Virus record (IMG/VR): IMGVR_UViG_3300021963_000099
DNA: 20,000 nucleotides
Strand: one strand, 5' to 3'
From: an uncultured virus (IMG/VR IMGVR_UViG_3300021963_000099)
Taxonomy: Duplodnaviria; Heunggongvirae; Uroviricota; Caudoviricetes
Shown piece after piece: positions 14,167 to 18,974 of the stretch. How positions within the stretch are numbered: the stretch's first letter is position 1; every line of letters begins with the position of its first letter. The translations under genes were made by a program, and so were the position numbers. The notes beneath the pieces were generated by a model that worked only from the letters and a program-made list of their open reading frames with translations, had not been told where the DNA came from and made no database searches.

Positions 14167-15258
14167 ATGACACTTTCTTCCGATTACATTCGCACTTCTC
14201 TTCAATCCCTTTATGGTAATAATATTACCGGAGCAGATATTCGTGCTTGGTGTAATATGAATGAATCTAATTATCAAACCGTAACTAATAAACTTGCACA
14301 ATATAAAACTAGTCGCGGTAAATGGAATCTTGAAGTCACTCAACAAAAAGTAGAAGAAATCGAGCGTTCTTTCCAAGCCCCTTCTGTTCTTCCTACTTCT
14401 GAACAAAATCTTATTCCCGAAAAAGATGATACCTTCGTCAAGTTTGGTAATTTTTCAGATATTAAAAAAATTATTCAGTCCAGTCTTTTTTATCCTACAT
14501 TTATTACGGGCCTCTCTGGTAATGGTAAAACACTCAGTGTGGAGCAAGCATGTTCTCAACTGAAGCGAGAACTGATCCGTGTTAACATCACCATTGAAAC
14601 AGATGAAGATGATCTTATTGGTGGTTTCCGTCTACTGAATGGCGAAACAGTTTGGCACAATGGACCTGTAATTGAAGCACTAGAGCGAGGTGCTATTCTA
14701 CTGCTCGATGAGATTGACCTTGCTTCCAACAAAATCCTTTGCTTACAATCCGTGCTAGAAGGTAAGGGTGTATTCCTGAAAAAAATTGGTAAGTTTGTAA
14801 AACCTGCTTCTGGATTCAATGTAATTGCTACTGCAAATACCAAAGGCAAGGGTTCTGATGATGGTCGTTTCATCGGTACGAATGTTCTTAATGAGGCATT
14901 CTTGGAACGCTTCCCTGTGACCTTTGAGCAGTCCTATCCTGCCCCTGCAACTGAACAGAAGATTCTGGAAGGCATCGCTCTAGATCTTGGCGTGGAAGAC
15001 CGTGACTTCTGCAAGCGTCTGGTAGACTGGGCAGATATCATCCGTAAGACCTTCTACGATGGTGGTATTGAGGAAATCATCAGCACCCGTCGTCTGGTTC
15101 ACATCATCCGTGCCTACAGCATCTTCCAAGATAAGGCAAAGGCAATTCAAGTGTGCGTGAACCGCTTTGATGACGAAACCAAGCAAGCATTCCTTGAACT
15201 TTATGACAAGGTAGACGCTGATTTCCAAATGCCTATTGACCAGGAAACGCAATCCTGA
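14167..15258 (+). CDS. cobS: CobS-like MoxR-family AAA+ ATPase
   Basis: GLSGNGKT (Walker A), ETDEDDLIGG, LLLDEID (Walker B), ATANTKG, NEAFLERF and ISTRRL; matches the cyanophage 'cobS' core gene. Confidence 0.92.
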   Translation: MTLSSDYIRTSLQSLYGNNITGADIRAWCNMNESNYQTVTNKLAQYKTSRGKWNLEVTQQKVEEIERSFQAPSVLPTSEQNLIPEKDDTFVKFGNFSDIKKIIQSSLFYPTFITGLSGNGKTLSVEQACSQLKRELIRVNITIETDEDDLIGGFRLLNGETVWHNGPVIEALERGAILLLDEIDLASNKILCLQSVLEGKGVFLKKIGKFVKPASGFNVIATANTKGKGSDDGRFIGTNVLNEAFLERFPVTFEQSYPAPATEQKILEGIALDLGVEDRDFCKRLVDWADIIRKTFYDGGIEEIISTRRLVHIIRAYSIFQDKAKAIQVCVNRFDDETKQAFLELYDKVDADFQMPIDQETQS

Positions 15259-17162: not shown

Positions 17163-17727
17163 TGATATATCTGTAATAGATAACTTTTTAAATCCCGATA
17201 TATTTTCAGAGTTTAAAAAAAGCATAATGAATCAAACATCATGGTATTTTACTGAAAATATATCTGGTGAAGAAATTAGAGATCCTAGAAAATATTATGG
17301 ATTTGGATTTACTTTCGTTGAGTTTGAAAATCCAGATGTATATAAAAAAGTAAGAGGATCTTGGTTTCTTCAAAATTTAAATAATAAAATAATGAAAAGA
17401 TTTAATTTTAGAACAGTTCTAAGATGTAGGTCTGATATGACAACCTACAGAGGAGAAGATGATCTAATATTAGATCCACATATTGATTTGGAGGGAAAGC
17501 ATTATACTACTATTTTTTATTTAAATGAATGTGATGCTCCCACCATTATATACAATGAGAAAATAGTTTATGGTGATGTAAAAAACTATTCAGGATCATT
17601 GACTGAAAAGAAAAGAGTCTATCCAAAAGAAAATAGATTACTCGTATTTAATGGAAACCACATACATACTGGAATGTGTCCCAAAAATACCTCATACAGG
17701 ATATTAATTAACTCAAACTTTAAATGA
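17155..17727 (+). CDS. 2OG-Fe(II) oxygenase superfamily protein
   Basis: VIDNFL, HxD (PHID), TIFYLN, PKENRLLVFNG, distal His (HIHTG) and R-x5-N (RILINSN). Confidence 0.85.
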   Translation: MINDISVIDNFLNPDIFSEFKKSIMNQTSWYFTENISGEEIRDPRKYYGFGFTFVEFENPDVYKKVRGSWFLQNLNNKIMKRFNFRTVLRCRSDMTTYRGEDDLILDPHIDLEGKHYTTIFYLNECDAPTIIYNEKIVYGDVKNYSGSLTEKKRVYPKENRLLVFNGNHIHTGMCPKNTSYRILINSNFK

Positions 17728-18674
17728 TGAACAAAAATGACTTTCTATGGGTTGAGAAATATCGCCCACAAAAAATTGAAGATTGCATTCTTCCATCTGG
17801 AACAAAACAAACTTTTCTAGATTTTCTTAAGAAAGGAGAAGTACCAAATCTTCTTCTTTCTGGTCCTGCTGGATGTGGCAAGACTACAGTTGCTAAAGCA
17901 CTATGTAATGAACTAGGAGTAGATGTTTACATCATCAATGGATCCGACGAAGGTAGATTCCTTGATACTGTCCGAAACAATGCGAAAAACTTCGCTTCGA
18001 CCGTATCACTTACTTCAACTGCTAAACACAAAGTCATCATCATTGATGAGGCAGATAACACAACCTCGGATGTACAACTCCTCTTACGGGCGTCTATTGA
18101 GGAGTTTGCTGGTAACTGCAGATTCATCTTCACTTGCAATTACAAAAACAAAATCATCGAACCACTTCATTCAAGATGTGCGGTTGTGGATTTTACCCTC
18201 AAGGGAAAAGAAAAAGCGAAACTTGCTGCTGAGTTTTATCAAAGACTTCAAGATATTCTAACTTTGGAAAAAGTAGAGTATGAGCAAAAAGTTCTTATTG
18301 AGTTAATCAATAAGCATTTTCCAGATTGGCGTAGAGTATTAAATGAATGTCAAAGATATTCTGTTAGTGGTAAAATTGATTCCGCTATTCTTGCATCTTT
18401 TTCTGATATTTCCGTAAATGATCTCACTAAAAATCTTAAGGAAAAGAATTTTGCAGAAGTCCGTAAATGGGTCATTAATAATCTTGATAATGACCCTGGG
18501 GTACTTTTGCGTCGTATTTACGATGCTCTTTATGTATCCCTTGAAAACGCTAGCATTCCTGCTGCTGTGCTTATTATTGCTAAGTATCAGTACCAGATTG
18601 CATTTGTTGCCGATCAAGAAATTAACCTTTTGGCGGCATTGACTGAAATTATGGTAGAATGTGAATTTAAATAG
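17724..18674 (+). CDS. g44: Clamp loader large subunit gp44
   Basis: LWVEKYRP, GPAGCGKTT, IIIDEAD, FIFTCN, PLHSRC and FPDWRR. Confidence 0.97.
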   Translation: MMNKNDFLWVEKYRPQKIEDCILPSGTKQTFLDFLKKGEVPNLLLSGPAGCGKTTVAKALCNELGVDVYIINGSDEGRFLDTVRNNAKNFASTVSLTSTAKHKVIIIDEADNTTSDVQLLLRASIEEFAGNCRFIFTCNYKNKIIEPLHSRCAVVDFTLKGKEKAKLAAEFYQRLQDILTLEKVEYEQKVLIELINKHFPDWRRVLNECQRYSVSGKIDSAILASFSDISVNDLTKNLKEKNFAEVRKWVINNLDNDPGVLLRRIYDALYVSLENASIPAAVLIIAKYQYQIAFVADQEINLLAALTEIMVECEFK

Positions 18675-18683
18675 GAGAAAAAA

Positions 18684-18974
18684 ATGAATGTAAAACTTAT
18701 CCGTATGTCTTCTGGTGAAGATGTAGTCACTGAAGTTCTAGAAGAAAAAGAAAATAGCATTGTAGTTCAAAATGCTATTGTTGCTATTCCTGCTGGAAAT
18801 AGTCAACTTGGGTTTGCACCTTGGGCACCAATCCTAAGTCGCTCTAAAAAAGAACTTGAAGTGAATTCAAAGTTCATTGTGTTTATTGCTGATCCAGATG
18901 ATTCTGTAGTTGAACAATATGAACAAATGTTCTCACCAATTTCTAAACCAGCAGGCAAAAAACTGATCCTCTGA
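18684..18974 (+). CDS. Conserved T4-like small hypothetical protein (possible Sm-like fold)
   Basis: MNVKLIRMSSGEDVV...GFAPWAP...YEQMFS...KKLIL; AGGAG SD upstream. Confidence 0.75.
   Translation: MNVKLIRMSSGEDVVTEVLEEKENSIVVQNAIVAIPAGNSQLGFAPWAPILSRSKKELEVNSKFIVFIADPDDSVVEQYEQMFSPISKPAGKKLIL

What the first reader, a model, noticed from the sequence alone, without database searches (positions are those of the whole stretch)
17949..18128. Two consecutive structured elements inside g44 around the Walker B region
Seen, element 1: TGATACtGTCcGAA(17963-76) pairs with TTCGACcGTATCA(17996-18008), capped by GCGAA-aaac-TTCGC(17982-95) and extended by GAAGgTAG(17949-56)/CTTACTTC(18009-16). Element 2: perfect 8-bp AACTCCTC(18076-83)/GAGGAGTT(18099-106), enclosed by GCAG/CTGC and GATGAG(18045-50)/TTCATC(18123-28). 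The patch uses CGA, GCG, TCG and CGG codons that are rare elsewhere in the window. Inference: a second layer of information, potentially tuning gp44:gp62 stoichiometry (4:1 in T4) or mRNA processing.
Basis: partly seen in the sequence, partly recalled or inferred. Interest (0 to 1): 0.72.

Follow-up and report, generated by a model that had tools for sequence, protein, structure and literature searches.

The report
Hidden genes inside cyanophage clamp loader
The odd codon patch in this marine cyanophage's DNA clamp-loader gene is best explained by a second, unannotated protein gene read in a shifted frame of the same DNA (with another one further along), not by conserved RNA hairpins, although its translation has not been shown.

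Summary
The stems are in the sequence, but only a 5-bp cap hairpin (17982-17995) survives comparison with homologs. The patch lies inside a nested +1-frame ORF of g44 (ORF-A, 17923-18261). That frame is stop-free over 17931-18150 in 64 of 69 near relatives and 36 of 40 Syn9-type phages (null P(open) 0.04 and 0.009), and in 0 of 24 S-RIM44-type phages. ATG 17929 and a GGAG/GGGG site 9 nt upstream come and go with the frame. Radical +1 amino-acid changes are depleted (223 vs 359 expected). A second nested ORF (ORF-B, 18418-18642, hydrophobic) behaves alike. Neither has an independent homolog. Against: no translation data; this phage has lost ATG 17929 and would need ATG 17923 or 17938; the C-rich third positions also occur where ORF-A is absent. 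Function is inferred: small accessory proteins made alongside the replisome, probably acting at membranes or on protein partners. The gp44:gp62 tuning idea is unsupported. The scan already reported a nested g44 gene on other genomes (e1-5789025, e1-5758504); nine paper searches showed none in print.

The parts
17724..18674 (+). g44, clamp-loader large subunit of a T4-like cyanophage (mother gene, frame 0)
   Evidence: ORF; phrog_168 E 3.7e-131; Pfam AAA and Gp44_lid; nearest named records are cyanophage g44 at about 76% nt
17916..17919 (+). Internal Shine-Dalgarno-like GGAG, 9 nt before the family start of ORF-A
   Evidence: GGAG/GGGG in 65 of 69; 3 of the 4 GGTG sequences carry 4-7 stops, 0 of the other 65 carry more than one; 36 of 40 in the Syn9 clade, GGTG in 15 of 24 in the S-RIM44 clade
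17929..17931 (+). Family start codon of ORF-A (ATG in relatives, ACA in this phage); alternative ATGs here at 17923 and 17938
   Evidence: ATG in 67 of 69, 40 of 40, 1 of 24; contigs of all four runs laid match the window across this site with no difference
17923..18261 (+). ORF-A: nested +1-frame ORF, 112 aa (107 from ATG 17938), basic and Ser/Thr-rich, with an amphipathic helix near residue 55; conserved core to about 18170
17982..17995 (+).
   Evidence: intact in 56 of 69 and 40 of 40, 7 of 24 in the S-RIM44 clade; one G-C/A-U switch; four of five pairs are fixed by the gp44 protein
17949..18016 (+).
   Evidence: outer stem intact in 2 of 69, main stem in 15 of 69
18045..18128 (+).
   Evidence: core intact in 34 of 69, 1 of 40, 0 of 24; +1 residues at 18076, 18079, 18097 and 18100 kept in 64-66 of 69
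18418..18642 (+). ORF-B: second nested +1-frame ORF, 74 aa, starts right after a TAA, basic ends and two hydrophobic stretches
   Evidence: open over 18420-18599 in 60 of 69, null P(open) 0.017; radical changes 155 vs 263 expected; median best 19-residue hydropathy 2.4; absent from the Syn9 clade

Best explanation
The patch is dual-coding DNA. Ribosomes bind an internal GGAG on the g44 message and start at an ATG in the +1 frame, making a 75-125-residue basic protein (ORF-A); this clade also makes a small hydrophobic protein from ORF-B. Third positions of gp44 codons are second positions of ORF-A codons, so keeping ORF-A open and its Arg, Gly and Ser residues forces otherwise rare codons (TCG, GCG, CGG), and the G/C-richer sequence gives chance stems. 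Shown: open frame, start and SD conservation, depletion of stop-creating and radical changes, joint loss in one clade. Inferred: translation, and function. My most likely function (about 0.45 if the gene is real) is an accessory protein expressed with the replication genes that acts on the host membrane or a host protein. Next (about 0.2) is binding gp44 itself and placing it at the membrane, as GndA relocalises Gnd. In this phage the usual start is lost, so its own copy is about 0.65 likely to be expressed.
For: Frame open over 17931-18245 in 61 of 69, null 0.010-0.047 per sequence; over 17931-18150 in 64 of 69, 36 of 40 and 0 of 24; 17 of 21 and 9 of 12 after thinning at 85% and 80% identity within the patch. 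Avoidance is context-specific: Val before A is GTA in 4 of 190 inside vs 77 of 123 outside, but 89 of 175 before C/T inside. It is frame-specific: the three reverse frames show no comparable depletion and +2 only a mild one. In 34 disjoint pairs, stop-creating changes were 5 vs 47.2 expected and radical changes 223 vs 358.8, against 311 vs 350.3 for milder ones; Syn9 clade 2 vs 26.4 and 100 vs 184.6; no depletion of radical changes in the S-RIM44 clade (147 vs 141.6), in g45, or in the ORF-B region of the Syn9 clade (128 vs 110.6). Tyr before G is TAT in 67 of 68 at the start vs 36/46, 23/69, 25/35 at other sites. Where gp44 varies (F/S/N at 18093) the +1 residue stays L/V/I in 63 of 69. Of 20 cultured cyanophages, 11 are open for 75 or more codons, one for 56, and all 8 broken within 11 codons have GGTG.
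Against: This phage lacks ATG 17929; its ATG 17923 is 3 nt from the GGAG and 17938 is 18 nt away. ORF-A differs in character between clades (median best hydropathy 0.56 vs 2.27) and its stop wanders from 18199 to 18415. GC3 is also raised in the patch of the ORF-less clade (0.49 vs 0.32, 23 of 24), so the C-ending codons are not due to ORF-A; only TCG/GCG/CGG are specific to this clade. A first pairwise SN/SS test was weak (0.47 vs 0.55-0.77, four informative columns). The ORF-A tail 18171-18245 avoids stops but shows no amino-acid selection. Stop-creating changes outside the ORFs in this clade are also somewhat low (0.65). P-values are not fully corrected for relatedness. No Pfam or PHROG family; AlphaFold gives pLDDT 56, pTM 0.20.
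Confidence: 0.85

Rival explanations
1. Conserved RNA secondary structure inside g44 constrains the codons and tunes mRNA processing or gp44 output; the open +1 frame is a by-product.
For: Window fold z -2.66; cap hairpin intact in 56 of 69 and 40 of 40 with one G-C/A-U switch; covariation score above all 500 shuffles; ORF-internal structure gates GndA initiation (bioRxiv 10.64898/2026.10.22.760973, abstract and Discussion read).
Against: Long stems intact in 2-34 of 69; pairs with double changes at the shuffled level; mean z -0.71 in homologs. It does not predict frame-specific stop avoidance, a conserved ATG with SD, or depletion graded by +1 amino-acid effect. No conserved structure covers the SD or ATG.
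Confidence: 0.05
2. The +1 frame is translated but the act of translation is what matters: ribosomes in the nested ORFs damp or couple translation of gp44 or downstream genes, or protect the message, and the peptides are secondary.
For: The +1 frame is tiled by successive ORFs in two different patterns (A then B here; A1 then A2 from 18196 to 18400 in the Syn9 clade); the stop of ORF-A wanders; protein character differs between clades.
Against: Radical amino-acid changes are depleted more than mild ones within A, B and A1 (p 5e-5, 1e-3, 4e-6 uncorrected), which points to selection on the peptides.
Confidence: 0.06
3. Homogenisation by recombination, or codon optimisation at a highly conserved ATPase region, froze a sequence whose +1 frame happened to be open.
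For: C-ending codons are raised in the patch even in the ORF-less clade; the patch recruits contigs of many relatives at 85% identity or more.
Against: All 69 haplotypes differ, median 36 of 180 nt; the frame stays open across clades whose gp44 is about 67% identical; substitutions occur but avoid stops; the same gp44 residues in the S-RIM44 clade carry 3.7 stops.
Confidence: 0.03
4. Programmed +1 frameshifting from gp44 into ORF-A gives a trans-frame clamp-loader variant, like the dnaX gamma product (recalled).
For: Clamp-loader genes are known frameshift substrates (recalled); a small hairpin lies in the patch; this phage keeps the frame without the usual ATG.
Against: A +1 stop at 17920 in 52 of 69 is followed by a conserved ATG with a well-spaced SD, which a frameshift does not need. 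The gp44/ORF-A fusions in databases look like frameshifted assemblies at scattered junctions; the one fusion looked up is a singleton.
Confidence: 0.01

Closest known systems
E. coli GndA, out-of-frame altORF inside gnd (bioRxiv 10.64898/2026.10.22.760973; abstract and Discussion read)
   Same: Same-strand out-of-frame ORF inside an enzyme gene, overlapping functionally important residues, internal initiation, amphipathic-helix product
   Different: GndA is under 40 codons, bacterial and gated by an RNA thermometer. ORF-A is 75-125 codons, no gating structure is conserved over its start, and no sequence relation was found
Lambda Rz1 in Rz, phiX174 E in D, T4 30.3' in 30.3 (all recalled; one search retrieved no paper on 30.3')
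   Same: Phage genes fully nested in the +1 frame with their own start; E is a membrane protein inside an essential gene, as ORF-B would be
   Different: Host gene here is a replication ATPase; two successive nested ORFs; no family hit; Rz1-type lipobox not evident by eye
Overprinted viral accessory genes (review PMC8227390, passages read)
   Same: Restricted distribution inside an older gene, no homolog elsewhere, disorder-prone composition
   Different: The review deals mainly with small eukaryotic viruses; this is a 170-250 kb phage family where genome compression is an unlikely motive
Small two-helix holins (recalled)
   Same: ORF-B has similar size, basic ends and two hydrophobic stretches
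   Different: No holin family hit; sits in a replication gene; missing from the Syn9 clade; T-rich third positions make +1 frames hydrophobic by default

Membership tests
Nested (overprinted) same-strand gene | Alternative frame kept open beyond what the mother protein and codon usage give | tested here: met
   64 of 69 and 36 of 40 open vs null 0.042 and 0.009; 0 of 24 in the control clade
Nested (overprinted) same-strand gene | Own conserved initiation signal | tested here: met
   Family level: ATG 67 of 69 and 40 of 40, GGAG/GGGG 65 of 69 and 36 of 40. This window lacks that ATG
Nested (overprinted) same-strand gene | Purifying selection on the alternative protein | tested here: met
   Radical changes 0.62, 0.59, 0.54 and 0.68 of expectation in A, B, A1, A2; 0.96-1.16 in controls except 0.76 in the B region of the S-RIM44 clade; the SN/SS test was weak
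Nested (overprinted) same-strand gene | Younger than the mother gene, no homolog outside it | tested here: met
   The 16 of 85 profile hits read are frame products of g44-like genes; tblastn hits listed all lie in g44 (60 of 264 shown); broken in DLP6 and Melnitz
Nested (overprinted) same-strand gene | Translation and phenotype shown | not testable with these tools
   No Ribo-seq or proteomics available
Conserved cis-regulatory RNA structure | Helices maintained by compensatory changes | tested here: not met
   7 pairs with double changes vs 7.2 shuffled; only the cap pair is convincing
Conserved cis-regulatory RNA structure | Match to a described RNA family | tested here: not met
   No Rfam match in the patch up to E 5
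Holin (ORF-B) | Small membrane protein with one to three transmembrane helices and a basic tail | tested here: inconclusive
   Hydropathy fits; AlphaFold gives one long helix, pTM 0.36; no family hit
Holin (ORF-B) | Lethal membrane lesions that release an endolysin, late expression | not testable with these tools
   Needs expression tests

The most novel reading that the evidence does not exclude
T4-like cyanophages carry a hidden second-frame proteome tiled through their core genes: g44 holds two successive nested genes whose set differs by clade (A+B here, A1+A2 in Syn9-type phages, none in S-RIM44-type), cobS holds another, and the basic amphipathic or transmembrane products tether the clamp loader or replisome to the host membrane or supply membrane-acting functions that annotation has missed.
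Probability: 0.3. Interest if true: 0.85.

Novelty: new member of a known kind. Interest (0 to 1): 0.6.

Why it matters
g44 is a core gene of some of the most abundant ocean phages, and none of the 20 cultured cyanophage records opened here annotates a nested gene in it. Two selected proteins of no known family inside it add to the gene count of model phages (Syn9, S-SM2, P-SSM2), distort synonymous-rate and codon-adaptation estimates on g44, and give a directly testable target: a gp44-silent stop codon, or ribosome profiling of infection. Natural loss in whole clades offers a built-in comparison. Overlap of this kind is known in principle, and the scan has seen the g44 case before on other genomes.

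Tried and rejected
Rfam: two chance miRNA hits outside the patch. Promoter and terminator scan: nothing above shuffles, no promoter-like site just before ORF-A. Other frames: none conserved open. ESM Atlas: ORF-A scores 0.90 to RFC/AAA clusters, the artefact the tool warns of for a wrong frame over a real gene; ORF-B only unnamed hits under 0.85. Homolog searches: ORF-B alignment gave 1 protein among 1829 candidates of 34-135 residues, which reads like the same +1 product; ORF-A shorter forms gave 1 among 17; longer forms were covered only. AlphaFold models were too featureless for fold searches, which I did not run. Complex prediction of gp44 with ORF-A was not available, so binding is untested. 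P0070, a 201-aa +1 product of a distant g44, led to Melnitz, whose own +1 frame is broken; not pursued. Paper searches (listings and abstract starts only) showed no report of a nested gene or RNA element in cyanophage g44. Passages of PMC10690425 do not mention the clamp loader; its supplements were not opened. PMC5314882 was irrelevant. Subscription papers on cyanophage transcriptomes and proteomes, and their supplements, were not seen and could bear on the claim.

Full report
Setting. The window is part of a 37.5-kb contig of a T4-like cyanophage. The finding lies in g44 (17724-18674; phrog_168), whose nearest named relatives are cyanophage g44 genes at about 76% nucleotide identity.

Observation. 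The quoted stems and rare codons are present. The region folds with z -2.66 against dinucleotide shuffles but -1.6 against synonymous permutation, and 9 of 32 tiled windows of six window genes reach -2.0 or lower. I took 80 IMG/VR loci (mean pairwise identity 0.753 with the window included) and kept 69 after removing 12 that were 90% or more alike outside the patch. Synonymous divergence is lowest, 0.53-0.58 of expectation, in windows starting 17991-18036, with a second dip of 0.54 at 18546. The constraint is real.

The stems do not explain it. Intact whole stems among 69: element 1 outer 2, main 15, cap 56; element 2 core 34. In 40 Syn9-type and 24 S-RIM44-type sequences the element 2 core is intact in 1 and 0. 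On 70 of the 107 sequences extracted, 7 pairs had a change on both sides against 7.2 in shuffles; the covariation score beat all shuffles, which relatedness can cause. RNAalifold keeps the cap hairpin with one G-C/A-U switch, 12 of 70 broken. Four of its five pairs are fixed by the gp44 residues, so it stays a possible minor element.

The +1 frame does explain it. One search lists an ORF at 17923-18261 in the +1 frame. Over 17931-18245 that frame has no stop in 61 of 69, where synonymous randomisation gives P(open) 0.010-0.047. Val before A is GTA in 4 of 190 cases inside and 77 of 123 outside, while before C/T it is GTA in 89 of 175 inside. Other frames show nothing comparable, nor does g45 (59 sequences). 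An ATG at 17929 is present in 67 of 69, 9 nt after GGAG or GGGG (65 of 69); three of the four GGTG sequences have 4-7 stops, though two of them are close relatives.

Two further clades test this. Syn9-type loci (80 reduced to 40): ATG 40 of 40, frame open in 36 of 40, null 0.009. S-RIM44-type loci (78 full-length of 80, reduced to 24): ATG 1 of 24, open 0 of 24, 3.71 stops against 3.19 expected, and no clear synonymous dip (0.78-0.95). After thinning at 85% identity within the patch 17 of 21 remain open. Of 20 cultured cyanophages 11 are open for 75 or more codons, P-RSM3 for 56, and the 8 broken ones all have GGTG; two open ones also have GGTG and S-BM3 has TTG for a start.

Selection acts on the peptide. 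In disjoint nearest pairs, third-position changes silent for gp44 were binned by their effect in +1. In the ORF-A core: stop-creating 5 vs 47.2 expected, radical 223 vs 358.8, milder 311 vs 350.3. Syn9 clade: 2 vs 26.4 and 100 vs 184.6. S-RIM44 clade: radical 147 vs 141.6; g45 0.99 (p-values, uncorrected for relatedness). An earlier SN/SS test was weak. TCG, GCG and CGG are enriched in the patch in this clade (0.34, 0.31, 0.23 vs 0.07, 0.10, 0.04) and not in the S-RIM44 clade; they give Arg, Arg and Gly in ORF-A. Against the reading: C-ending codons and GC3 are raised in the patch in the ORF-less clade too, so part of the GC-richness has another cause, perhaps codon choice at conserved residues or a relic of a lost ORF.

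More nested ORFs. ORF-B (18418-18642, 74 aa) starts straight after a TAA and is open in 60 of 69 (null 0.017); Asn before G is AAT in 60 of 61 at its start, and radical changes are 155 vs 263. It is basic at both ends with two hydrophobic stretches. The Syn9 clade lacks it but has A2, from ATG 18196 (37 of 40) to a stop at 18400 (39 of 40).

This phage. It has ACA at 17929; contigs from four runs of four studies match the window across that site without a difference, so the loss is real. One of these samples could be the window's source. The frame is still open for 112 codons (P 0.018), with ATGs at 17923 and 17938. Either it uses one of these or it lost the gene recently.

What the products are. 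No Pfam or PHROG family. A profile search of 1.84 billion representatives gave 85 hits; the 16 I read are +1 calls or frameshifted fusions of g44-like genes, and the 8 looked up are singleton clusters. AlphaFold models are uninformative. ORF-A is basic and Ser/Thr-rich with its highest hydrophobic moment near residue 55; the Syn9 version has a hydrophobic stretch near residue 22. I infer small accessory proteins made with the replication genes and acting at the membrane or on a partner protein. GndA, an altORF product that relocalises its mother protein, is the closest worked-out model, by analogy only. Binding to gp44 is untested.

g62 lies 1.4 kb and three genes downstream of g44 in S-SM2, so mid-gene hairpins are poorly placed to set gp44:gp62.

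Novelty. Nested +1 genes are a known kind (phiX174 E, lambda Rz1, T4 30.3' recalled; review PMC8227390, passages). Nine searches showed no paper on this one, but the library lacks most subscription journals. The scan noted a nested g44 gene on two other genomes; I reached the reading before looking (note). I could see only a few lines of those reports, so I cannot say whether ORF-B, A2, the control clade or the cobS ORF were in them. Interest 0.6.

Noticed in passing
window 14426-14563 (+), inside cobS 14167-15258: A third nested +1 ORF, 45 aa, basic and hydrophobic; synonymous ratio 0.43-0.54, +1 stops 0.07 vs 1.06 and 0.02 vs 0.43 per sequence in 61 relatives, stop-creating changes 1 vs 16.0, Met present in all 45 rows shown. 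Depletion is not graded by amino-acid effect, so a nucleotide-level element is also possible.
   Followed up: partly
Syn9-type loci, e.g. L266, positions equivalent to window 18196-18402: ORF-A2, about 68 aa in the +1 frame, open in 37 of 40, ATG 37 of 40, radical changes 98 vs 144; in the window's clade this stretch is the variable tail of ORF-A.
   Followed up: partly
L011, L030, L031, L039, L053, L056, L068: In 7 of 69 ORF-A runs to the TAA at 18415 directly before the ATG of ORF-B, an arrangement that suggests translational coupling.
   Followed up: no
proteins P0070 and P0071: 201- and 216-aa products that look like +1 frames of g44 from a more distant phage lineage; nested frames in g44 may reach beyond cyanophages.
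   Followed up: partly
window 18509-18526 (+): Terminator-like hairpin inside g44 and ORF-B, at the second synonymous dip; conservation not tested.
   Followed up: no
window 18684-18974 (+): Gene after g44 belongs to phrog_527, a conserved family of unknown function, with a clear GGAG site.
   Followed up: no
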